A stretch of DNA of 63,919 bases, the filler included, from Collodictyon triciliatum (lineage: Eukaryota): assembly GCA_043381765.1 (NCBI GenBank). It is 13 parts of 13 records of this genome, joined end to end, with 100 filler letters (N's around TTAATTAATTAA, not from the genome) between each part and the next. Parts side by side here need not be neighbours in the genome. Positions count along the whole stretch, not along the records: positions 30,674 to 35,685 come from JBHJMP010005557.1; 12 more parts are not named here. The stretch is one strand, 5' to 3'. Shown in pieces: positions 29,768 through 56,284 of this stretch. The first letter of the stretch is position 1; each line of letters opens with the position of its first letter. Under the pieces are notes generated by a model. It was not told the origin of the DNA, did no database searches, and saw nothing but the letters and a program-made list of their open reading frames with translations. Position numbers and translations under genes: made by a program.

Positions 29768-30673
29768 TAAATTGTCAGTCCTTGAGAATGGAAAAAAAAT
29801 TATTAAAATTAAATTCAAAGAGTCGACAGTATTATAATGATTTTGGAAATTCAGAGACCGAAAAAAAAAAAAAAGGCAAAGGACTTCGGCACCACTGAGC
29901 AATGCAGTTTCAATAATGGTACATTATATGTGGGCGTATTGTAAAATTATTTTGATATTGCAATTATATGGGACATATATAGCTTTCTGTTCATCTAGTC
30001 TACGAATGAAAAGATTTCATAATACGAACAAACCAAGCGCGACACTGGTTTCCTTGAAACATCGTAATAGGGCGAATCGGAGCGTTTGGGATGATGCACT
30101 TAACATCCTTATATTTCATGTTATAATATTTGCAAGAAAGCAGAACGACTTAACAAATATTAAACGTAAACAAACAAAATAGAATTTTTAATCTCCTGTG
30201 GTTTTTTTTTGTGAGTATCATCGTTGCAGTCGATAAGAATAGTTTCTGGGGAGTGATGATATTCGGGTATGGATTAAATTGAGTAGTTCTCATAAGATAT
30301 CATACGACAGTACAGTAGGAAGAAAACCTTGGGTACAATGTCTCGAAGGGTCTCCTCGTATTCTTGTGCGTCCCCACCCAGTCCGTGAAGCCTGACATTA
30401 GTATTATTTCACAATATGCAATTTAATTACCCTTAAACAATACATTCAAAATAAACAGAAGAAAAGAGACAGAGAAAGAGAAAGAGAAAGAGAAAGAGAA
30501 AGAGGAAGAGAAAGAGAAAGAGAAAGAGAAAGAGAAAGAGAAAGAGAAAGAGAAAGAGAAAGAGAAAGAGAAANNNNNNNNNNNNNNNNNNNNNNNNNNN
30601 NNNNNNNNNNNNNNNNNTTAATTAATTAANNNNNNNNNNNNNNNNNNNNNNNNNNNNNNNNNNNNNNNNNNNN

Positions 30674-33600
30674 CAGAATTTGGATGGCCTTTTGGGAAGA
30701 AAATGCAAAAAAATTGCAAAGTTGATGCACGAAATAGAACGAAAACCTTCTCTTCAATATTGCTATGTCGAAGGTGAACTACCAACTAACCCACAATACG
30801 GAGAATTTTTCAATCCAAATCATGGCCATACCCTCGATGATGGGAAAACGCCTTCTTATTCCATATTTGTGCTGCGATGTGCACCCATTAAGAAATCCAG
30901 TGCCACGACGTATGAGTTCTTTCACAAATCGCTCTACGAATTCTTTGCTGCTGAATACATCAAAGATGAAATCAATAGTTCCGATGTGGAGAATCAAGCT
31001 TCTGTCCAACCATCAACTGAAGCTCAAAATGTTGCAACTTTCTCTGAATCCGCGAATTCTATACCTGAAAAATCTGATGCGAAATCACCAAGCACGATGA
31101 TGTCCGATGTTGTTAATTCTGTGATAAAATCAAAAGTGAAGACGAATGTTCTGGATAAAAAGCTTGAGCCTGCCATTCTGCTCAACCTGAGTGAGAAAGT
31201 GAACAGAGACAAAGCCTACAAAGACAATCTGTTTTCAATCATCGAGCAGTCTAAGACAGATGCAAGCAAAGCGCAAGCTGCGTCGAATGCCATCACAATA
31301 CTGAATTATGCTGATATTTCATTCAGCGGCATGGATTTCAGAGGGATTCAAATTCCAGATGCCGACATGTCACAGTCTGTTGCTGATGGTGCTGACTTCA
31401 CTGGTGCCAACTTGGAGGATGTTTTGTTCTATAATGCATGTATTTCGAACTGTGTTTTTGATGATGCAAATATGAAAGGCGTTAATTTTGGTCGTTTGCC
31501 TTTATTTTTGGGACATACAGAAGGTGTCAACAGTGTTTGTAGTATTCAAGGACCGAATGGTGAAAAATGGTTGGCTTCTGGAAGTGAAGATAAAACAATA
31601 CGTATTTGGGATGTACTCACAGGAAACCAAATCAAAACATTAGAGGGTCATAAAGAGCCAGTCATGAGTGTTTGCAGTATTCAAGGACCGAATGGTGAAA
31701 ATTGGCTGGCTTCTGGAAGTGTTGATAAAACAATACGTATTTGGGATGTAATCACAGGAAACCAAATCAATATATTAGAAGGACATACAAGCGCTGTCAT
31801 GAGTGTTTGCAGTATTCAAGGACCGAATGGTGAGAATTGGCTGGCTTCTGGAAGTTATGATGGTACATTACGTATTTGGGATGTAGCAACAGGAAACCAA
31901 ATCAAAACATTAAAAGGACATATAGAAGCTGTGATTAGTATTTGCATTATTAAAGGACCGAATGGTGAACACTGGTTGGCCTCTGGAAGTAGTGATAATA
32001 CAATACGTATTTGGGATGTAGCCACTGGAAACCTAATCAAAATACTTGATTATAAAAGACCTATTAAAAGTGTTTGCAGTATTCAAGGACCGAATGGTGC
32101 AAAGTGGTTGGCCTCTGGAAGTTATGATAAGACAATACGTATTTGGGATGTAACAACAGGAAACCAAATCAAAACATTAGAAGGTCATACAGAACGTGTC
32201 AATAGTGTTTGCAGCATCCAAGGACCGAATGGTGAAACCTGGTTGGCTTCTGGAAGTGAAGATAAAACAGTACGTATTTGGGATGTAGCCACAGGAAACC
32301 AAATCAAATCGTTAGAAGGTCACACAAATTGTGTCAATAGTGTTTGCAGTATTCAAGGACCGAATGGCGAAAATTGGTTGGCTTCTGGGGGTAGGGATCC
32401 CCATACTGGAAGTAGTGATGATACATTACGTATTTGGGATGTAGCGACAGGAAACCAAATCAAATCGTTAGAAGGTCACACAAATTGGGTCACGAGTGTT
32501 TGCAGTATTCAAGGACCGAATGGCGAAAATTGGTTGGCTTCTGGGGGTGATGATAAAACAATACGTATTTGGGATGTATCCACAGGAAACCCAATTAAAA
32601 CATTAAAAGGTCATACAGAGCCAGTCTTCAGTGCTTGCAGTATTCAAGGACCGAATGGTAAACACTGGTTGGCTTCTGGGGGTTGTGATCCCTATGATAT
32701 GAATGGTGATAGAACAATACGTATTTGGGATGTAGCGTCAGGAAACCAAATCAAAAATTTGAAGGGTCATATGAGTGCTGTCAATAGTTTTTGCAGCATT
32801 CAAGGACCGAATGGTGAACACTGGTTGGCTTCTGGAAGTTGGGATGAAACAATACGTATTTGGGATGTAGCGTCAGGAAACCAAATCAAAACATTAGAAG
32901 GTCATATAAGTTCTGTCAGTAGTGTTTGCAGTATTCAAGGACCAAATGGTGAAAAGTGGTTGGCTTCTGGAAGTTATGATAAAACAATATGTATTTGGGA
33001 TGTAGCCGCAGGAAATCAAATTAAAACCCTGGAAGGTCATACAGATGAAGTAAAAAGTGTTTGCAGCATTCAATGGCCGAATGGTGAATGTTGGCTGGCT
33101 TCTGGGAGTGCTGATAAGACAATACGTATTTGGGATGTAGCCACAGGAAACCCAATTAAAACCCTGGAAGGTAATACAAGCGCTGTCATGAGTGTTTGCA
33201 GCATTCAATGGCCGAATGGTGAAAACTGGTTGGCTTCGGGAAGTAGTAGTCCCGATGGAATAAGCAATGATAAAACTATACTAATTTGGGATATAATCAC
33301 AGGAAACCAAATCAAAACATGTGAAGGTCATACAGAAGGTGTCATTAGTGTTTGCAGTATTCAAGGACCAAATGGTGAAAAATGGTTGGCCTCTGGGAGT
33401 AATGATAAAACAATACGTATTTGGGATGTAGCCACAGGAAACCAAAAACAAAATTCTCAAAAACCAGAAGTGACCTACAATGAAAAGAGCCAATTGGTCA
33501 TGAAAGATAAACCAGAAGAATTCATTGCAATAATCAATAGTACAAGTGATGTGATGAATGTGATTGATACAAACAGAATAATGAATGTGAGAACTGTTCG

Positions 33601-35089
33601 AATTATCGGCCCAAGAACACTTGAAGCTGTAAATACTCGTATCAATAGAGCTGAAATGGGTGCAATGAACAAGAAACTATTCCTGCAAGAAGGTGCTGCT
33701 TCCTTTGATGCGGACTTTGCTGCCTATTGTGAGCAGGGAAAGTTCACAAAGTTCCAGGCTGAAATGATGGCTGAATGCTATGAGAATGGATGGATTGTTG
33801 AGAAGGACACTGAAAAGGCGTGCTACTGGAGAGTTGTCGCTCCTTTGAAATCATCATTAGACTTTAATGGATTAAAACAACTCGCACAACAATGTTCAAA
33901 GGAGGCATTCAATGTTTTGAAAGAAATGGCTGAAATCAAATATAGACGTGAATACAAATATCCACAGGCTGTGTCTATTGTTGCTGAATGCTATGAAAAT
34001 GGATGGGGTGTTGAGAAGGACACTGCATCATATCTTAAATGGGAAATATTTGGTGGAAAAGCTGAAAACCTTAACAAACTGAAGCAACTCGCACAACAAG
34101 GCTCAAAAGAGGCATTCAATGTTTTGAAAGAAATGACTGAAATGAAGGATATATACGATAAATACAAATATCCGCAGGCTGTTTCTATTGTTGCTGAATG
34201 CTATGAAAATGGATGGGGTGTTGAAAAGGACACTGAAAGAGCTATCGAGTGGCTTGGAAAGGCTGAAAACTTTGACAAATTGAAGCAACTCGCACAGCAG
34301 GGCTCAAAAGAGGCATTCAATGTTTTGAAAGAGATGGCTGGTATGAAATATGATTGGAATGAAAAACACAAATATCCACAGGCTGTCTCTATTGTTGCTG
34401 AATGCTATGAAAATGGATGGGGTGTTGAGAAGGACACCGAGAAAGCAGCTGAGTGGAGTCTATTGGCACTAAAAGCAGCTCAAAAAATTGACAAATTGAA
34501 GCAACTCGCACATAAGGGCTCAAAAGAGGCATTCAATGTCTTGAAAGAAATGGCTGAAATGAAATATGAAAATGGAGAATACAAACATACAAAGGCTGTT
34601 TCCATTGTTGCTGAATGCTATGAGAATGGATGGGGTGTTGAAAAGGACACTGAAAGAGCTGCTGAATTGTTTCGAATAGCTGAAAACTTTGAAAAACTGA
34701 ACGAACTCTCACAGCAAGGCTCAAAAGAGGCATTCAATGTCTTGAAAGAAATGGCTGGAATGAAGGATAGATGGGAAAATTACAAATATACGAAGGCTGT
34801 TTCTATTGTTGCTGAATGCTATGAGAATGGATGGGGTGTTGAAAAGGACACTGAAAGAGCTATCGAGTGGCTTGGAAAGGCTGAAAACTTTGACAAATTG
34901 AAGCAACACGCACAAGAAGGCTCAAAGGAGGCATTCAATGTTTTGAAAGAGATGGCTGAAATAAAGGGATATGGAAGATACAAATATCCGCGGGCTGTCT
35001 CTATTGTTGCTGAATGCTATGAGAATGGATGGGGTGTTGAGAAGGACACCGAGAAAGCAGCTGAGTGGAAACAGAAAGCCTCAGCTTAA
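30674..35089 (+). CDS. NLR-like STAND protein, 5' truncated: NACHT C-terminal (winged-helix) region, pentapeptide repeats, 14 WD40, 7 Sel1-like repeats; single exon
   Basis: 1469-aa ORF open from the contig start. YEFFHKSLYEFFAAE (NACHT-associated FxHxSxxEF motif); AASNAITILN..FSGMDFRGIQIPDADMS..ADFTGANL (pentapeptide module typical of NACHT-WD40 proteins); WD40 array; NKKLFLQEGA cap; AECYENGWGVEKD repeats. The P-loop itself is not in the contig. Confidence 0.88.
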   Translation, partial: QNLDGLLGRKCKKIAKLMHEIERKPSLQYCYVEGELPTNPQYGEFFNPNHGHTLDDGKTPSYSIFVLRCAPIKKSSATTYEFFHKSLYEFFAAEYIKDEINSSDVENQASVQPSTEAQNVATFSESANSIPEKSDAKSPSTMMSDVVNSVIKSKVKTNVLDKKLEPAILLNLSEKVNRDKAYKDNLFSIIEQSKTDASKAQAASNAITILNYADISFSGMDFRGIQIPDADMSQSVADGADFTGANLEDVLFYNACISNCVFDDANMKGVNFGRLPLFLGHTEGVNSVCSIQGPNGEKWLASGSEDKTIRIWDVLTGNQIKTLEGHKEPVMSVCSIQGPNGENWLASGSVDKTIRIWDVITGNQINILEGHTSAVMSVCSIQGPNGENWLASGSYDGTLRIWDVATGNQIKTLKGHIEAVISICIIKGPNGEHWLASGSSDNTIRIWDVATGNLIKILDYKRPIKSVCSIQGPNGAKWLASGSYDKTIRIWDVTTGNQIKTLEGHTERVNSVCSIQGPNGETWLASGSEDKTVRIWDVATGNQIKSLEGHTNCVNSVCSIQGPNGENWLASGGRDPHTGSSDDTLRIWDVATGNQIKSLEGHTNWVTSVCSIQGPNGENWLASGGDDKTIRIWDVSTGNPIKTLKGHTEPVFSACSIQGPNGKHWLASGGCDPYDMNGDRTIRIWDVASGNQIKNLKGHMSAVNSFCSIQGPNGEHWLASGSWDETIRIWDVASGNQIKTLEGHISSVSSVCSIQGPNGEKWLASGSYDKTICIWDVAAGNQIKTLEGHTDEVKSVCSIQWPNGECWLASGSADKTIRIWDVATGNPIKTLEGNTSAVMSVCSIQWPNGENWLASGSSSPDGISNDKTILIWDIITGNQIKTCEGHTEGVISVCSIQGPNGEKWLASGSNDKTIRIWDVATGNQKQNSQKPEVTYNEKSQLVMKDKPEEFIAIINSTSDVMNVIDTNRIMNVRTVRIIGPRTLEAVNTRINRAEMGAMNKKLFLQEGAASFDADFAAYCEQGKFTKFQAEMMAECYENGWIVEKDTEKACYWRVVAPLKSSLDFNGLKQLAQQCSKEAFNVLKEMAEIKYRREYKYPQAVSIVAECYENGWGVEKDTASYLKWEIFGGKAENLNKLKQLAQQGSKEAFNVLKEMTEMKDIYDKYKYPQAVSIVAECYENGWGVEKDTERAIEWLGKAENFDKLKQLAQQGSKEAFNVLKEMAGMKYDWNEKHKYPQAVSIVAECYENGWGVEKDTEKAAEWSLLALKAAQKIDKLKQLAHKGSKEAFNVLKEMAEMKYENGEYKHTKAVSIVAECYENGWGVEKDTERAAELFRIAENFEKLNELSQQGSKEAFNVLKEMAGMKDRWENYKYTKAVSIVAECYENGWGVEKDTERAIEWLGKAENFDKLKQHAQEGSKEAFNVLKEMAEIKGYGRYKYPRAVSIVAECYENGWGVEKDTEKAAEWKQKASA
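31511..33446 (+). repeat. Coding tandem array of 14 WD40 units, 135-bp period (156 bp in units 7, 9, 13; one codon shorter at the unit 4/5 junction)
   Basis: GHxxxVxSVCSIQGPNGExWLASGSxDxTIRIWDVATGNQIKTLE repeated with very high DNA identity (GH codons at 31511 and 31646). Confidence 0.97.
33770..35086 (+). repeat. Coding tandem array of 7 Sel1-like units, ~200-215 bp period
   Basis: LKQLAQQGSKEAFNVLKEMAxxK-[variable]-KYPQAVSIVAECYENGWGVEKDTE repeated with high DNA identity. Confidence 0.95.
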
Positions 35090-35399
35090 CAAGGTAATTA
35101 ATTAAATAAATGCATGTTAATAAATGTTCCTTAATTATTTTATATTAGATGGAGGGATTCTCTGTGTTTTTTCAAACAGACCTTCGCCGCTTTTTCCCAG
35201 AAGGACGCTCCATGAAAACAGAATAAAAACTAAAAAAAAATGAAAGCAAAGCTGATCGATTGATGGCCATTTAATCGAATCTTTTATTATTATTTTTTGT
35301 TTTCCGACCACAAATTTGTGTTCTAGTACTCTGGAAAGCATTCATGACTTTATAGCTTCTTTGTTCATATGCTTCGATATTCAACTTCCAAAAAAAAAA

Positions 35400-35685
35400 T
35401 TTCCTTCTTTCGATTTTATGCAAGATGGTGGCATCGTTGGCTTTGGTTCGCTAGCCATCGTTTGCATGGACGCTACTTGGTGGCCGGGTGGCGGAGAAGT
35501 AGTCAGTAACCAGCAATTGCATCCTGCGGTTTGGCCTGTAGCCTGGGTCTTGTGCTTGCATGAGGGAGACAAGGCGAGGTTTGATTTCTTTCTCAGCTTC
35601 TTTCCACATGTCTCTTCTCACGGGGTCTGAGTAGTAGAGAACGTGCAGGTGGCGAAGAAAGCTATTGAGGAAAGAGATTTGTATG
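35400..35685 (-). mobile_element. LINE family A 3' end (ORF2 C-terminus + 3' UTR), runs off contig
   Basis: Closely similar to 52841-53042 and 61494-61642. Encodes ...DPVRRDMWKEAEKEIKPRL...RRMQLLVTDYFSATRPPSSVHANDG*. Confidence 0.9.
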
Positions 35686-37224: not shown

Positions 37225-38327
37225 CTTCTACTTTTTTTAATTATTCTGGCTGAAGACCTTATTTTAAAAAACTGCATCTATTTTTTCAAATGAACTTTCT
37301 GTGTTTGTTGTTATCGCATGTTGTCAGTATGAATAGAGAAGCTTGAAATTTCAATAATATGATATATAATACTGCGTGAGGACATCTGTCCTCTTCAGTG
37401 ATGCATTAAATATAAACGAAGTTCTACTGATTAATTTTCATCATATAGAATCAGAATAGTATTTTCTAGAATTTCATAAGATCAAAATTCCTTATTGCTG
37501 AAATAACAGTAGAATACCTGATTATTCTACTGCTATTTCATTGCCATATGTTCTATCTCACCTGCACCAAATTTGAAAAACATCATTTTCTCAACCACAA
37601 GAAAGAAGCTGTCACTGAATGAGTTCTGCAGATCACGATAATGAGCAATACCGAAGACAGAAGTTTAAAAACACCCAAAGACCCGAGGAAATTGTATTCT
37701 GTTTAATGTCCCAATACTATTAATCTAGACTTCATGCTTAAGGAATCCTAATTTATAAGACAAGTTTAGTCGTCTCGTTATAGGTCGCGTGAAAAGCCTG
37801 AAGTTGTGAATAGGCCGCCTTGTTTGCAATCCTGAAAGACTGATGAAATTACATAGCCCCGTAATGTTATGATTTTGTGCTTCTTTGAAATTTGGTGTCA
37901 TTTATTGTCGATTTTTAACGTCAATCAATTGAAGCAAGGTTTTGATGAAAAGCTATTAATATAACAAATCAACCAGTTTAATAGGGGGTTGGCTGTGAAG
38001 TTGTCTTATTACGTCATCTCACTATTCTTGTTGTCGATATTATTTCAGACAAATTGTTCGAAAATGTTTCGGCTGAACTTAAAAAGATATTCCCGTGGGT
38101 ACGAAATCAAGGTATGGAAATAATTTCACACTCAATATCTGCTCTACATGAAAACGAATTTCGGACTATCTTGAAATAAATTAAGAACCATAAAACAACA
38201 ATAGGAACTAGTAGACTATTACAGAGCAAATAGTGAACTTTTCAACCGAAGCATAGTACACAGGCTAACACAATATGCAGAATTATACTGGTTTCCTGAA
38301 AGATTTTTTTTTATTGAAATATCATTG

Positions 38328-39488
38328 ATGAAAAGCTGGAAAGAGAGACCAAGAGCAGGGTTTTTTCACCCTTCCCTTTATGCTAAACACATGAAGTATA
38401 ATGAATGGCCAACAGCTGGGTTGATGCTCGAAAAAAATCCTGGAGTGTATGAAAAGAACGACAGTTACTCACCAAATCTGATGCACGAAGGGGAGCATTG
38501 GATATCCTTGACTGATCAAGCAAGGTTCATATTACATCGCCGAGAGGTATACGCTTCAGATAGAAATTATGTTATTTCTGGTACATGCAAGGATAGAATG
38601 TCTATAATGGGATTCACTGAAGTCAAAATTAGCTCCATAAAGAATACTTGTATAACCACTAGATTTGAGGATACGAAAATGTATCGTGTAATTTTATTAC
38701 CAATAGGAAAATGGGGTCAGGAAAACTATTATCATGTATGGGTCGAATCATTGTTACATTGGTTCACATTACCAGATTTTTTTAGAAGCAGCGATGATGT
38801 TAAAGTACTTATCGATAAGAGAACAGACTTTTCAAGGTATGCCCTCAAAGTTTTTGGCGTAAACGAAAGCCGGATAATTGAGTTCACAAGGGAAAAGAAC
38901 TGCTTTTTAAATTTTAAGGAAATCATCATTCCAACTCTTCCAATATGCATCAAGCCAATTTTGCCGCAAATGCTGCTGATGAGGCATCATTTCGGTGTGA
39001 AAGAATTAAACTTTACTCATTTTTCATTACCTTATAGAAAACCAGCTATAAGTTTTTTACCTTTAAAGGAAAAAGAAAGCAAAAAGATAATGATTGTTCT
39101 ACATCGTCGTCAACAAAGACCTGTGAGAAACACTGACGAGAAGATTTCTGTTCTTGTCGAAAAATATGGAAGTAGATGGGATATAATCTGCTATGAAATT
39201 AGTAAGATGGAAGATTCCATCAGCTTATTCAAGAATGCAAAGCTTATAATTGGTCATCACGGTGCCGGTTTTGTCAACATGTTGTTTTCTACGTCGACCA
39301 GTATAATAGAAATACATGATACAACCCCCATGGCTCCAAAGAGACCACCAGGTATTGTTGACTGCTATGCTGTAATGGCAAGAAAACTGCAATTTCCGTA
39401 TATGGCTATTGAAGGTGACAGGCGATTCTATGATATCCCCAAAGTCATGAGATATGTGGACAAAATGATGGGAATAATAGTGACATAA
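38328..39488 (+). CDS. Glycosyltransferase family 61 (DUF563-like); possible short upstream exon(s)
   Basis: NYYHVWVESL, IIIP, and FKNAKLIIGHHGAGFVNMLFS...IIEI are GT61 signature motifs in a 387-aa uninterrupted ORF. Confidence 0.85.
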   Translation: MKSWKERPRAGFFHPSLYAKHMKYNEWPTAGLMLEKNPGVYEKNDSYSPNLMHEGEHWISLTDQARFILHRREVYASDRNYVISGTCKDRMSIMGFTEVKISSIKNTCITTRFEDTKMYRVILLPIGKWGQENYYHVWVESLLHWFTLPDFFRSSDDVKVLIDKRTDFSRYALKVFGVNESRIIEFTREKNCFLNFKEIIIPTLPICIKPILPQMLLMRHHFGVKELNFTHFSLPYRKPAISFLPLKEKESKKIMIVLHRRQQRPVRNTDEKISVLVEKYGSRWDIICYEISKMEDSISLFKNAKLIIGHHGAGFVNMLFSTSTSIIEIHDTTPMAPKRPPGIVDCYAVMARKLQFPYMAIEGDRRFYDIPKVMRYVDKMMGIIVT

Positions 39489-53390: not shown

Positions 53391-54042
53391 CCTATTAATT
53401 GGTGATATAAAGCAGCCTAAAACACTGTCAAAACAAAATTAATGCAAACCATATCATACCATTGAAAAAGCAAATGATCCACTCTGTGTGATATCGACCA
53501 TATAATATTTTGTTTTCTCTTGAATGCGGCATGTGAAAAAAGAGAGAACGAGTTTGGGTCGTATGTTATGCCACCCCACCTAGTGGTGTATATCCAAAAC
53601 AACAATATGTCTTATGGTATATGTCCAGTGATAGGTAGCATTCAGGGGCGTCCATTCAGTCGTGCGCTCCATCAAGACGGATTGAACACAGTTCTATTAT
53701 ATTCATAAATCTAAAGCTTCTGGAAACACATACCTTTTTTTTTTACTTTCTACTTTTTTGTATCATAAATATTTGTGTGCAAAGCGACTGGACAAATAAA
53801 AAAATAAAGCAAAAATAAGAATATTTGACTCTGCTTTTGCTTTGCACTCCCCCAAAAAACACCTCTGATATGCTTCGCTTCTTCGCTAATCACTTGTATT
53901 TCTTTTTTACTTTTGTTTTTAGGTCATAGAGCTCATATTTGTTTGACGCTATAATCCGCTTATTTGTTCAAACACAACTGAACACAACGAGAGCGATGCT
54001 GCTCTCACGGAGGGTTCTCCCTCCACCCATTAATAACAGACC

Positions 54043-56284
54043 ATGCGTTTCGGCGTTCTGTCATGGAACGCTAGGGGGATTAACGACCCCCACAGGCGGA
54101 AAGAGGTTTACAAGACAGCTCTTTTCACCCACGCGGATATCATCTGTCTTCAAGAGACGTGGCAGAGCCCTGAGACCCAATCTACTGACTTCGGGTGGAA
54201 GGGCCCTCAGCTATGGTCACCATCATTATCACCATCACAACACAAACATGCCGGCGTAGCAATCCTGTGTAAAAGGTGGATTGCTAAGCTAAAGCCCATC
54301 TTCAAAGTCATTATCCCCGGCCGCGCCATAAGCATGGATATCCAGATGGATGGGAAAACAACAAGGATAATCACTTGCTACATGTCACTCCAAACGGCTG
54401 GCCTCCAAACAAGAATGGGGGAATTCGAGCAACTCACTAAGGAGCTTGACACCCCCCATACAATCATATGTGGAGACTTCAACGCAGTCCTTGACCCAGA
54501 GCTAGAGTGGACAGGCGTGTCCACAAGACAAGACAAGCCATTCATCAACTGGGTCAATCAACATAATTTACACGACCCATGGACTACCCTCTACCCGAAT
54601 CTGCTTGGAGCTACGTGCAGGCGTCAAACAAGAAGCGGCCCGACGTGGAGCAGAATTGACCGGTTCCTGTGCAATGCCGAGGCGTCGCCATGGTTCAAAT
54701 GGATGCACACATTCGATACAAATCTATCGGACCACAGTGCTATAGTGTCGTTCCTAGACACAGCTGGAGGAAGGCCAGCATCTCCGAAGCGTATCGATTG
54801 GAGAGCATACAACGACCCGGAAGCTGTAGAAGAAATCAGTCACAGTCTGAGGTCTCACTTCAACACGCCAGAGGATGAACCGATAGAAGCCGACTGGAAG
54901 GCTGTCAAAGAGAAGCTCATCTCCTTGCTCAACGAGAAATCCAGCGAATTCAAGAAAAAAAGCAACATAGAGAGAAGGACACTGGAAAAAGAAAGAGACG
55001 TTCTCATGTCAACCTCTATAAAACCCTCATCATGGAGCGAAGGGCGTAAAAAGAAAATCGTATCGGTCGAAGATAAACTGATTGCACAGCTATCGGAGGA
55101 CATCGAAGCTGAAAGACGAAAATGGGAATCACGACACATCAGGTACTACGAGCAAATCGACCGATGGTTCTTCGGACTCGGCAAAGAAAAAGAAATGACG
55201 CTCTACCCTCCACTGCCAGAGTCAGACGAGAATGAACCGCTGCCACCTGAAGAGATTGGCAAAACTAACATCCAAAACTTCTACGCCGATGTGTGGAAGA
55301 AGCGAGACTTTGACCGTGCAACCCTCGAGCTGGTAACAAACAACTGCTCTGTAGCGAACGAAAGGGAGGCAGAATCCATGGTCAAAGATATTGATGACAG
55401 CGAACTGTGGAGCGCTATCAAGTCCATGCCGAAGCGCAAAGCACCAGGCCCTGACCGCCTACCTAGTGAAGCGTACGCCACCTTCTTCCAAGTCATCAAG
55501 ACATCCCTCCTGGGACTCCTAAACAGCCTGATTGCAGATGCAGACAACATCCCGGATGGCTTTACAGAAGCAATGGTGCGTCTAATCCCAAAGAAGGAGG
55601 ATGCAACCGACCTCAGAGACTGGCGCCCGATATCTCTGCTCAATAACGACTACAAGATATTTGCCACAATCCTAAGAAACCGAATCTCCGATATCGCAGA
55701 CAGGCTCATATCAAAGGAGCAAAAAGCATTCATGCGTCGCAGGAACATCGACACAAACATATGGCTCGTGAACAAGGAATACATGGAATATCAAGTCTCC
55801 AAAGACCCACGCATCATGGTATTCTACGACCTTGAGAAAGCATATGACTATGTGAACCATGAAGCCCTAGAAATAATCCTAAAAAAGCGAGGGTTCTGCT
55901 CAAAGTTCACAAAACTTATCAAGAAGCTACACGACAACGCCACAACTAGGGTTCTGACTGCACACGGCCCTACCGACATAATCCAGAGACAAAGCGGCGT
56001 CTACCAAGGATGCCCTCTGGCGCCGCTTCTCTTTAACTTTGTAGCCGACTTCCATGCAGTCCACTTCAGAAACAACAACAAAATCCGCAACCAATTCCTC
56101 CTGCAATATGCCGACGATACAGCCTTCATCCTTTGCTCCCCTGAAGGCGCTATCCTGGCAAATAAGTGCATGCAAGAATACACACTTGCAGTTGGAGGTA
56201 AAATCAACTTCAACAAAACAGACGGTATCCTATTCGGCCTACAGGATGGTGGAATCCTACCAGAAAACATCGACTGGAAATACC
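54043..56284 (+). mobile_element. Non-LTR retrotransposon ORF2 (APE endonuclease + reverse transcriptase), L1/Tx1 clade, open to contig end
   Basis: SWNARG, DIICLQET, GDFN, SRIDRF, SDH (APE); KAPGPD, LIPKK, WRPISLLNNDYK, DLEKAYD, GVYQGCPLAPLLF, YADD (RT). No stops over about 747 codons. Confidence 0.97.

What the first reader, a model, noticed from the sequence alone, without database searches (positions are those of the whole stretch)
30674..35089. Candidate protist NLR-like receptor with two tandem, separately diversifying sensor arrays (14 WD40 + 7 Sel1-like)
Seen: one ORF with a NACHT-type C-terminal motif, pentapeptide repeats, 14 near-identical WD40 units (enough for two 7-blade propellers), the NKKLFLQEGA motif at ~33668-33697, then 7 near-identical SLR units. 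Known: NACHT-pentapeptide-WD40 proteins (Mortierellaceae/Mycoavidus-type, ciliates, cyanobacteria) usually end at such an N..LL.Q.GA cap. Fungal NLRs such as Podospora HET-D/HET-E use a single high-identity repeat array for non-self recognition. Inference: a second variable array was appended beyond the normal terminus, giving a two-input or integrated-sensor receptor. I do not know this architecture from described NLRs. It may mark an undescribed innate-immunity or allorecognition system in this protist.
Basis: partly seen in the sequence, partly recalled or inferred. Interest (0 to 1): 0.85.

Follow-up and report, generated by a model that had tools for sequence, protein, structure and literature searches.

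The report
Protist NLR-like gene, WD40 plus Sel1
This is the 3' two-thirds of a gene for a large switch-type (NACHT/NLR-like) protein that carries two repeat domains in a row, an uncommon but not unique layout whose function is untested.

Summary
A single 5'-open ORF (30674-35089, 1471 aa) encodes, in order: a post-NACHT helical region, pentapeptide repeats, 14 WD40 blades, a pentapeptide-like cap (NKKLFLQEGA at 33668-33697) and 7 Sel1-like units.

- **Truncation:** the window is an artificial chain of ~5-kb contigs. The gene is cut by a contig end, so the NTPase and any effector domain are absent here.
- **Repeat identity:** the repeats are similar, not near-identical. WD40 units average 82% nucleotide identity. 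Sel1-like units 2-7 average 80%, and unit 1 is about 50% identical to the others.
- **Selection:** diversifying selection is not shown.
- **Junction:** it is not chimeric. Four Diphylleia rotans transcriptome genes share the linker, cap and first Sel1-like unit. One of them (P0191) is a full NACHT-pentapeptide-WD40-cap-Sel1-array protein.
- **Frequency:** in 172 family proteins, Sel1 follows the propeller in 6. Of the 60 with a detectable cap, 29 continue more than 60 aa beyond it. The slot after the cap is therefore variable.

I read it as a eukaryotic NLR-like STAND protein with a tandem-propeller sensor and an amplified C-terminal Sel1 accessory solenoid. An immune role and a two-input mode are untested. 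It is a new variant of a known kind, of moderate interest.

The parts
30574..30673 (.). Artificial spacer (N44-TTAATTAATTAA-N44) marking a contig boundary. The gene's 5' part is missing upstream of it.
   Evidence: the same spacer recurs about every 5.1 kb, 12 times in the window
30674..35089 (+). 5'-open ORF of 1471 codons plus a TAA stop. No internal stops, and homology runs along its whole length.
30674..30973 (+). Post-NACHT helical/winged-helix-like region (aa 1-100, motif YEFFHKSLYEFFAAEYI).
   Evidence: tblastn to P0143 residues 938-1017, E=5.7e-6; BLASTP to P0191 from residue 784. The Pfam NACHT domains of those relatives end at 834 and 632.
31145..31309 (+). Conserved helical linker (aa 158-212, ..IIEQSKTDASKAQAASNAITILNYA..) that precedes the pentapeptide repeats.
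   Evidence: best-matched query stretch in most hits; helices in the AF2 model
31307..31495 (+). Pentapeptide-repeat beta-helix (aa 212-274).
   Evidence: Pfam PF00805 E=7.7e-8 and PF13599 E=8.3e-8; strands with 5-residue period in the AF2 model
31505..33454 (+). 14 WD40 units (aa 278-927). Three units carry a 7-aa insertion. Predicted to form tandem beta-propellers.
33455..33577 (+). Low-confidence linker (aa 928-968).
   Evidence: pLDDT below 50 in both AF2 models
33578..33697 (+). Family C-terminal cap (aa 969-1008, ends NKKLFLQEGA), pentapeptide-like.
33698..33847 (+). Sel1-like unit 1 (aa 1009-1058), divergent. It is the unit shared with the Diphylleia rotans relatives.
33848..35086 (+). 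Sel1-like units 2-7 (aa 1059-1471), each 66-71 aa with four helices, i.e. two Sel1 hairpins. This is the amplified array.
35094..35148 (+). Candidate 55-nt GT..AG intron in the 3' UTR, starting 4 nt after the stop codon.
   Evidence: one contig of run X1 joins 35091 to 35147 (cut +2), and 3 loose ends at 35093 continue with the post-intron sequence; sequence. X1's RNA label is only a guess, so this is a hint.

Best explanation
The contig carries the 3' two-thirds of an intronless nuclear gene of a eukaryote for a NACHT-clade STAND (NLR-like) protein.

Shown: the domain order is post-NACHT helical region, helical linker, pentapeptide beta-helix, 14 WD40 blades, disordered linker, pentapeptide-like cap, then a Sel1-like solenoid of 7 four-helix units. 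Homologues with this layout have a P-loop NACHT upstream.

Inferred mechanism:
1. As in Apaf-1 and other STAND switches, the repeat region keeps the NTPase off.
2. A ligand binding the top faces of the tandem propellers releases that block.
3. Nucleotide exchange and oligomerisation follow, and an N-terminal domain, unknown here, acts.

The Sel1 solenoid sits in a variable post-cap slot. In relatives this slot holds one Sel1-like unit followed by other tails. I read the solenoid as an accessory protein-binding or tethering module that this lineage enlarged by tandem duplication of a two-hairpin unit. A defence or non-self-recognition role is plausible by analogy but untested.
For: - Domains and repeats.
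- Family: 21 relatives found among 1292 candidates, mostly NACHT+pentapeptide+WD40 proteins of Mortierellaceae and Mycoavidus. 741 cluster representatives match aa 1-285 at E<=1e-10.
- NACHT upstream in relatives: P0143 has NACHT at 664-834, E=2e-8, 34.7 bits. P0191 has it at 462-632, E=1.9e-5, 25.0 bits, just under Pfam's cut-off. Both show GxxGxGKT P-loops, and the window's first 100 aa align after that domain.
- Same order elsewhere: P0191 is 33% identical and has NACHT-pentapeptide-WD40-cap-Sel1 array. Its last two units are the best matches to the window's four-helix unit (44-47 bits, against 12-34 bits for ordinary Sel1 proteins). P0135 is 34% identical over 891 aa through the cap and first Sel1-like unit. 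P0010 is a further NACHT-like-pentapeptide-WD40-cap-Sel1 protein.
- Fold of aa 160-1060: AF2 pLDDT 84, with 55 strands in a four-per-blade pattern. Best PDB matches are 2ymu (a repetitive propeller structure, E=2e-52), SSU-processome and Gemin5 WD40 chains, and Apaf-1.
- Fold of aa 925-1471: pLDDT 77, four helices per unit. Best PDB matches are Sel1-repeat proteins 6ok3, 4bwr, LceB, SEL1L and HcpC.
- Variable positions: in the WD40 units they fall right after GH, after NGE and at the residue before the conserved Asp. From recall, these are top-face contact positions in WD40 propellers.
- Eukaryotic origin: the closest relatives are Diphylleia rotans transcriptome proteins. There is also a GT..AG joint just after the stop codon.
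- Variable post-cap slot: 29 of 60 proteins have more than 60 aa after the cap; tails of the relatives.
Against: - The NTPase and the N-terminal domain are not on the contig, so the switch itself is unseen.
- The NACHT hits of P0191 and P0010 are below Pfam's curated cut-off.
- No functional, expression or population data exist for this gene. No public run holds more than 7% of the contig's sampled words.
- The accessory reading of the Sel1 array rests only on what relatives carry in the same slot.
- The variable columns in the Sel1-like units lie in loops that also vary in length. That could be plain relaxed constraint.
- Copy numbers (14 and 7) come from one draft assembly of repeats about 80% identical and could be off. 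Contigs of run X1 show 'goes back' and 'skips' joints inside both arrays. These may be paralogues, copy-number variants or graph artefacts.
Confidence: 0.6

Rival explanations
1. Two-input receptor. The WD40 propellers and the Sel1 array are two independent, diversifying recognition surfaces, and activation needs or integrates both.
For: - Both arrays are tandem, internally similar and vary at a minority of columns. Post-hoc variable columns give pN/pS 0.87 (WD40) and 1.21 (Sel1-like), against 0.20 and 0.19 at the remaining columns.
- A 96%-identical 156-nt internal duplication shows recent repeat turnover.
- Sel1-like units 3 and 6 are 91% identical at nucleotide level.
Against: - The variable columns were chosen because they vary, so the ratios are circular. 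Overall pN/pS is 0.49 in both arrays.
- Synonymous divergence between units is about 0.30-0.34, and mean aa identity is 74% and 70%. The 85% similarity setting that Dyrka et al. used to detect highly conserved repeats is therefore not reached (PMC4986451, passages).
- Sel1-like variability sits in length-variable loops.
- Relatives fill the same slot with unrelated tails.
- No allele data exist.
Confidence: 0.15
2. Non-immune STAND scaffold. The protein is a housekeeping signalling or assembly factor, comparable to NPHP3- or TEP1-type proteins, and its repeats bind fixed cellular partners.
For: - The relative P0135 carries NPHP3-type TPRs (PF24885 E=8.3e-19, TPR_12 E=5.1e-37) before the pentapeptide-WD40 part.
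- Several paralogues are present in a Diphylleia rotans transcriptome.
- Sel1 proteins with solved structures that match best include adaptor subunits such as SEL1L/Hrd3.
Against: - The family has many divergent members with shuffled tails, the pattern usually tied to conflict systems (Kibby et al. preprint, passages).
- There is no one-to-one orthologue at high identity. The best match over the WD40 region is 49%.
Confidence: 0.17
3. The contig is bacterial (a symbiont or contaminant in the assembly) or a very recent transfer, not a nuclear protist gene.
For: - The ORF is 4.4 kb without introns.
- Family members occur in Mycoavidus and in many metagenome contigs.
- The window's contigs are not physically linked and differ widely in G+C, from 27% to 53% in 2-kb windows.
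Against: - The only proteins sharing the specific linker-cap-Sel1 junction are Diphylleia rotans transcriptome proteins.
- A 55-nt GT..AG joint lies just after the stop codon.
- About 350 nt of AT-rich non-coding sequence follows the stop before a convergent fragment.
Confidence: 0.05
4. Assembly artefact: the WD40/Sel1 junction is chimeric, or the repeat counts are wrong.
For: - The source is a short-contig draft.
- Repeats are about 80% identical.
- Contigs of run X1 show joints that skip or go back within the arrays.
Against: - Junction order is conserved in four independent genes of another organism.
- Independent short contigs cover 33542-33712 and 33683-33793, across the cap into Sel1-like unit 1.
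- A chimera is therefore unlikely. Only the exact copy numbers remain open.
Confidence: 0.03

Closest known systems
Diphylleia rotans transcriptome proteins (EukProt EP00002: P0191, P0135, P0296, P0143), unannotated
   Same: - SVCSIQGPNGE-type WD40 units, pentapeptide module, linker, cap and first Sel1-like unit are collinear. Identity is 33-35% over 590-890 aa for P0191, P0135 and P0143. P0296 is 34% identical over 97% of the aa 278-1060 query.
- P0191 has the full NACHT-to-Sel1-array order.
   Different: - By my WD40 profile, which misses divergent blades, P0191 has fewer blades (4 found) and a degenerate Sel1 array with long spacers.
- P0135, P0296 and P0143 have one Sel1-like unit and then other tails: MIB_HERC2-like (my reading of the sequence plus its precomputed Pfam list), CaaX-like CVIS, and low-complexity sequence.
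- The window's array is tight and about 80% identical between units.
NACHT-pentapeptide-WD40 proteins of Mortierellaceae and Mycoavidus (database entries such as P0002, P0004, P0007)
   Same: Post-NACHT region, helical linker, pentapeptide repeats, WD40 propellers and the V.GLS..N..LL.Q.GA cap; 29-47% identity in aa 1-285.
   Different: - The one I read to its end, P0002, stops about 10 aa after the cap.
- My profile finds no Sel1 in the 15 Mortierellaceae- or Mycoavidus-named proteins that I scanned.
Fungal HNWD / HET-E / HET-D NLRs (NACHT + internally conserved WD40 repeats)
   Same: - NACHT-WD40 order.
- A tandem WD40 array with a conserved scaffold and a few variable positions.
- HET-E-type proteins appear among the WD40 hits, for example P0318.
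   Different: - No pentapeptide module, cap or Sel1 array in those proteins (from recall).
- Repeat identity here (mean 74% aa) is below the 85% setting used to detect highly conserved repeats (PMC4986451).
- An allorecognition role is unknown here.
Apaf-1 (NB-ARC + tandem WD40 propellers)
   Same: A STAND switch with two consecutive propellers as sensor. Structural matches are 3sfz (E=2.9e-34, TMq 0.39) and 3shf.
   Different: An NB-ARC rather than a NACHT clade NTPase, 7+8 blades (recalled), no pentapeptide or Sel1 modules, and a CARD effector (recalled).
Bacterial NACHT proteins with repeat sensors, including the 'hybrid' class (Kibby et al., bioRxiv 10.1101/2022.07.19.500537)
   Same: - Tripartite logic.
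- C-terminal TPR, propeller or pentapeptide 'antigen-receptor-type' repeats.
- A class with an extra small C-terminal domain proposed to tether the protein (passages).
   Different: - The extra module here is a long Sel1 solenoid, and the gene is eukaryotic.
- Sel1 is not mentioned in that main text (0 occurrences). Its supplementary tables could not be seen.
STAND NTPases with Sel1 repeats but no propeller (metagenome proteins P0119, P0037, P0092, P0133)
   Same: NACHT or NB-ARC together with Sel1 arrays in one protein.
   Different: - My Pfam scan (P0119, P0037) and the precomputed domain lists (P0092, P0133) show no WD40 or pentapeptide module.
- In P0037 the Sel1 array precedes TIR and NACHT.
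2ymu, highly repetitive WD40 propeller structure
   Same: Best structural match: E=2e-52, 32% identity over 646 aligned columns.
   Different: A stand-alone propeller construct of 577 residues.

Membership tests
NACHT-clade STAND NTPase / NLR-like protein | P-loop NTPase domain with Walker A and Walker B (D[GAS]hDE signature) | not testable with these tools
   The contig starts after this domain. No other contig of the window carries it, and no genome is held. Relatives aligned over the same downstream region do have it.
NACHT-clade STAND NTPase / NLR-like protein | Helical/winged-helix region directly after the NTPase, homologous to that of proven NACHT proteins | tested here: met
   aa 11-100 align to P0143 residues 938-1017 (E=5.7e-6). 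aa 65 onward align to P0191 from residue 784. Their Pfam NACHT domains end at 834 and 632.
NACHT-clade STAND NTPase / NLR-like protein | C-terminal superstructure-forming repeats | tested here: met
   14 WD40 and 7 Sel1-like units.
NACHT-clade STAND NTPase / NLR-like protein | N-terminal effector or signalling domain | not testable with these tools
   Missing from the contig. The N-terminal 460-660 aa of P0191 and P0143 have no Pfam match.
NACHT-pentapeptide-WD40 family (Mortierellaceae/Mycoavidus type) | Conserved helical linker plus pentapeptide module before the propeller | tested here: met
   Pfam PF00805 E=7.7e-8; 741 representatives at E<=1e-10, mostly matched over aa ~158-283.
NACHT-pentapeptide-WD40 family (Mortierellaceae/Mycoavidus type) | Cap segment V.GLS..N..LL.Q.GA after the propeller | tested here: met
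NLRs with highly internally conserved repeats (Dyrka et al. 2014 setting, 85% similarity) | Repeat units at least ~85% alike | tested here: not met
   WD40 mean 74% aa identity (maximum 87%); Sel1-like units 2-7 mean 70% (maximum 80%). The setting is taken from PMC4986451 passages.
NLRs with highly internally conserved repeats (Dyrka et al. 2014 setting, 85% similarity) | Positive selection at surface positions of the repeats | tested here: inconclusive
   pN/pS is 0.87 and 1.21 at columns chosen post hoc, and 0.49 overall. No orthologues or alleles are available.
Sel1-like repeat (SLR) proteins, PF08238 | Sequence match to the Sel1 profile and an alpha-alpha solenoid fold | tested here: met
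   E=8.5e-41 and 3.2e-44. AF2 gives four helices per unit with pLDDT mostly 85-94. The top PDB matches are Sel1 proteins.
Tandem WD40 beta-propellers | 14 blades of four strands, matching known tandem-propeller structures | tested here: met
   55 strands in a four-per-unit pattern. Matches to 2ymu, Gemin5, SSU-processome chains and Apaf-1. I could not inspect coordinates, so the 7+7 split is inferred.

The most novel reading that the evidence does not exclude
A lineage of free-living protists (the window's organism and Diphylleia rotans) has NLR-like receptors with two different, independently amplifying recognition arrays in series: tandem propellers and a Sel1 solenoid. The protein would then integrate two ligands, or guard one partner while sensing another. 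No described NLR is known to work this way.
Probability: 0.12. Interest if true: 0.7.

Novelty: new variant of a known kind. Interest (0 to 1): 0.35.

Why it matters
NLR-like STAND proteins are the main intracellular immune switches of animals, plants, fungi and bacteria, but little is known about them in most protist lineages. This gene and its Diphylleia rotans relatives show that a NACHT-pentapeptide-WD40 family, so far visible mainly in Mortierellaceae, their endosymbiont and metagenomes, also occurs in free-living protists. They also show that the region after the family's cap is a slot where different modules are added, here an amplified Sel1 solenoid. That gives a concrete set of natural domain swaps for asking what the post-sensor module of a STAND protein does. 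It does not by itself reveal a new kind of system. The parts and the overall logic are known, the architecture is already in public sequence data, and the function is untested.

Tried and rejected
- **Whole genome:** none is held, so a genome-wide count of paralogues was impossible. tblastn of the protein and of relatives' N-termini against the rest of the window found nothing outside the gene.
- **Public runs:** none holds the contig; the largest share of sampled words is 0.07. The laid contigs are short pieces (at most ~290 nt) at 90-100% identity. They cannot settle expression, allele variation or copy number. One 151-nt piece from a freshwater metagenome run is identical to the window; I draw no habitat conclusion from it.
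- **ESM Atlas:** the look-up of aa 780-1471 gave only scores at or below 0.79, to bacterial WD40/TPR clusters. That is below the level that means anything.
- **Generic Sel1 search:** the search with aa 925-1471 gave 282 hits, at most ~31% identical except P0135. It showed no closer relative of the array.
- **WD40 search:** the search with aa 278-1060 gave thousands of generic WD40 hits. The best is 49% identical, so there is no near-identical protein in the collection at these lengths.
- **My WD40 profile:** it missed divergent propellers. All 6 proteins with no WD40 hit in my scan that I checked do have weak Pfam propeller hits. The '92 of 172 with at least 4 WD40' figure is therefore a lower bound, and I do not use it.
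- **Fixed-offset identity matrix:** the first one was out of register for WD40 unit 4 and for the Sel1-like units. It was replaced by codon-alignment values.
- **Downstream fragment:** a Pfam scan of the convergent fragment found nothing.
- **Literature:** searches for NACHT+WD40+Sel1+NLR (4 papers; passages read in 2), for NACHT+pentapeptide+WD40 (6 papers; listing only) and for Diphylleia rotans with NACHT/NLR/STAND (none of the 12 listed papers mentions Diphylleia rotans) found no description of this architecture.
- **Limit on the literature claim:** supplementary tables, such as those of Kibby et al., could not be seen and may list it.

Full report
**What the window is.** The 63,919-base window is not one piece of genome. 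It is a chain of contigs of about 5 kb, joined by the artificial spacer N44-TTAATTAATTAA-N44, which recurs 12 times. The finding lies on one such contig, 30674-35685 (5012 bp). Neighbouring stretches of the window are therefore not genomic neighbours. No whole genome is held for this window.

**The observation.**
- One ORF runs from the first base of the contig to a TAA at 35087-35089. Read from 30674 it gives 1471 residues (P0001).
- Pfam finds WD40 (E=1.4e-125, 14 stretches) and Sel1 (E=8.5e-41). On the first 279 residues it finds pentapeptide repeats (PF00805, E=7.7e-8, aa 217-252).
- A motif anchor finds exactly 14 WD40 units. Nine of the 13 spacings are 45 aa, one is 44 aa and three are 52 aa, the last reflecting a 7-aa insertion.
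- AECYENGW occurs seven times, 66-71 aa apart.
- Tandem Repeats Finder reports both arrays, with period 135 at 83% matches and period 201 at 81% matches. It also reports a 96%-identical 156-nt duplication at 32267-32548.

So the description is right. 'Near-identical' overstates it:
- WD40 units average 74% aa identity and 82% nt identity (73-88% nt).
- Sel1-like units 2-7 average 70% aa identity and 80% nt identity (70-91% nt).
- Sel1-like unit 1 is only 47-57% nt identical to the rest.

**The missing 5' end.** The ORF is open because the contig ends. tblastn with the N-terminal parts of relatives finds nothing elsewhere in the window. What remains of the N-terminus (aa 11-100, including YEFFHKSLYEFFAAEYI) aligns to P0143 residues 938-1017 (E=5.7e-6) and to P0191 from residue 784. 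In those proteins Pfam places NACHT at 664-834 (E=2e-8, above the curated cut-off) and at 462-632 (E=1.9e-5, just below it). Both have clear P-loops. A NACHT upstream is thus a well-supported inference, not an observation.

**The family.**
- A word-indexed search with aa 1-285 found 21 relatives among 1292 candidates. They are mostly NACHT+pentapeptide+WD40 proteins of Mortierellaceae (Haplosporangium, Mortierella, Linnemannia, Entomortierella) and of Mycoavidus, at 29-47% identity.
- The exhaustive search of 1.84 billion representatives found 5048 at E<=0.001 and 741 at E<=1e-10. Most are matched over the helical linker plus pentapeptide module (aa ~158-283).
- An alignment of 20 members gives the family consensus ...V.GLS..N..LL.Q.GA at the end of the propeller region. 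The window's aa 969-1008 align with this cap in 16 relatives.

**Is the Sel1 extension real and is it new?** The closest relatives are four genes of the Diphylleia rotans transcriptome in EukProt; the names were printed.
- P0135 is 34% identical over 891 aa. The alignment includes SVCSIQGPNGE-type blades, the linker, the cap and the first Sel1-like unit.
- P0191 is 33% identical. It is a complete protein with an unknown 460-aa N-terminus, then NACHT, pentapeptide, WD40, cap and a Sel1 array of the same four-helix unit type. Its last two units are the best matches to a profile of the window's unit, at 44-47 bits against 12-34 bits for ordinary Sel1 proteins.
These are P0135, P0191 with two isoforms, P0296 and P0143.

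The WD40/Sel1 junction is therefore not an assembly chimera. The architecture is also not unique.

I scanned 172 family proteins with my own profiles. The set was the query, 21 proteins, P0135, and 149.
- Sel1 follows the propeller in 6 of them: P0001, P0010, P0135, P0173, P0191 and P0249.
- P0010 is a NACHT-like (22.8 bits, below cut-off, with a GQGGAGKST P-loop)-pentapeptide-WD40-cap-Sel1 protein from a metagenome-type contig.
- A cap profile found a cap in 60 of the 172. Of those, 25 end within 30 aa of it, 29 have more than 60 aa after it, and 18 (including the query) have more than 200 aa.

The stretch after the cap is therefore a commonly used, variable slot.
- In the Diphylleia rotans relatives it holds one Sel1-like unit followed by different tails. 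P0135 has an MIB_HERC2-like region (my reading of the sequence; PF06701 is in its precomputed list). P0296 has a CaaX-like CVIS end. P0143 has low-complexity sequence.
- STAND+Sel1 proteins without propellers also exist, namely P0119, P0037, P0092 and P0133.

**Structure.**
- AF2 on aa 160-1060, with the 20-sequence alignment, gave mean pLDDT 84. It shows three helices, then strands with a 5-residue period (the pentapeptide helix), then 55 strands in a four-per-blade pattern. A disordered linker follows (aa ~921-980), then a short pentapeptide-like strand pattern at the cap, then helices.
- Foldseek's best PDB match is 2ymu, a highly repetitive propeller structure (E=2e-52, 32% identity). SSU-processome WD40 chains, Gemin5 and Apaf-1 follow.
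- AF2 on aa 925-1471 from the single sequence gave pLDDT 77. Each 66-71-aa unit forms four helices, that is two Sel1 hairpins.
- Its best PDB matches are Sel1-repeat proteins: 6ok3 at E=9e-12, then 4bwr, LceB, SEL1L/Hrd3 and HcpC. Global TM-scores are low, as expected for solenoids of different curvature.
- I could not inspect coordinates. The 7+7 split and any contact between the cap and the N-terminal pentapeptide helix remain inferred.

**Diversification.**
- Variable columns in the WD40 units fall just after GH, after NGE and at the residue before the conserved Asp. From recall, these are top-face contact positions in WD40 propellers.
- Between units, pS is 0.30 (WD40) and 0.34 (Sel1-like). 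pN/pS is 0.49 overall in both arrays. It is 0.87 and 1.21 at the variable columns and 0.20 and 0.19 at the rest.
- The variable columns were chosen for being variable, so these ratios do not demonstrate positive selection.
- In the Sel1-like units the variable columns lie in a length-variable loop and at the unit boundary.
- The units do not reach the 85% similarity setting used by Dyrka et al. 2014 to detect highly conserved NLR repeats (PMC4986451, passages).
- Recent turnover is real but modest: the 96% duplication and Sel1-like units 3 and 6 at 91% nt identity.

**Eukaryotic or bacterial?** Evidence for a nuclear gene:
- The specific relatives are transcriptome proteins of a protist.
- About 350 nt of AT-rich non-coding DNA follows the stop.
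- One contig of run X1 joins 35091 to 35147 (GT..AG, 55 nt, just after the stop). Three loose ends at 35093 continue with the post-intron sequence. X1's RNA label is only a guess, so this is a hint.

Other contigs of the window encode a LINE-type endonuclease/reverse transcriptase, a Myb protein and a GT61 glycosyltransferase, but they are not linked to this contig.

No public run holds more than 7% of the contig's sampled words. The laid pieces are short and 90-100% identical.

**Interpretation.**
- I read the gene as a eukaryotic NACHT-clade STAND (NLR-like) protein.
- By analogy with Apaf-1 and with the repeat-sensor class of bacterial and fungal NACHT proteins (Kibby et al. preprint, passages), the propellers most likely bind the activating ligand and hold the NTPase off until then.
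- The Sel1 solenoid occupies the variable post-cap slot. It was enlarged by tandem duplication of a two-hairpin unit that already existed in the common stock with Diphylleia rotans.
- I favour an accessory or tethering role, because relatives fill the slot with a prenylation-type end or other binding domains.
- Neither an immune nor an allorecognition role has any direct support.

**Novelty.**
- My literature searches found no description of NACHT-pentapeptide-WD40-Sel1 proteins. Supplementary tables of the large NACHT surveys could not be read.
- The parts, the tripartite logic and even this order are already present in public sequences.
- I therefore rate it a new variant of a known kind, of moderate interest.

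Noticed in passing
window 5020-5119, 10139-10238... 61394-61493 (12 sites): The window is an artificial concatenation of ~5-kb contigs joined by N44-TTAATTAATTAA-N44 (a six-frame stop linker). Adjacent parts are not genomic neighbours, and G+C ranges from 27% to 53% in 2-kb windows.
   Followed up: yes
window 35436-35685, minus strand: A convergent ORF fragment (77 codons to a stop, no Pfam match) sits at the contig end. It has very high summed depth and many variant contigs in runs X1 and X2. Contigs diverge at 35436, which suggests a repeated element or an exon boundary.
   Followed up: partly
window 35094-35148: A 55-nt GT..AG segment 4 nt after the stop codon is skipped in one contig of run X1. 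It is a possible 3'-UTR intron.
   Followed up: partly
window 32267-32548: A 156-nt stretch is duplicated at 96% identity across WD40 units 6-8, much closer than the array mean of 82%. This is a recent internal duplication.
   Followed up: partly
window 54037-56283 (+): An ORF with an endonuclease/exonuclease/phosphatase domain and a reverse transcriptase domain, i.e. a LINE-type retrotransposon, running into the contig end.
   Followed up: no
window 27161-27808 (+), within 26001-28000: A Myb DNA-binding domain ORF lies in a 53% G+C stretch, much richer than the rest of the window. It may be a different genomic compartment or a different organism.
   Followed up: no
window 38205-39485 (+): An ORF with a glycosyltransferase family 61 domain, E=5.2e-15.
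   Followed up: no
window 2508-4778 (+) and 8689-9807 (-): Long ORFs of 757 and 373 codons with no Pfam match at E<=0.001.
   Followed up: no
window ~29560-29670 and 30470-30573: Long trinucleotide (AAT/ATT-type) and (GA)n microsatellites. The second runs into the end of the preceding contig.
   Followed up: no
proteins P0296 and P0249 (relatives, not in the window): Two family members end in CVIS, a CaaX-like prenylation signal. This suggests membrane anchoring of some members.
   Followed up: no
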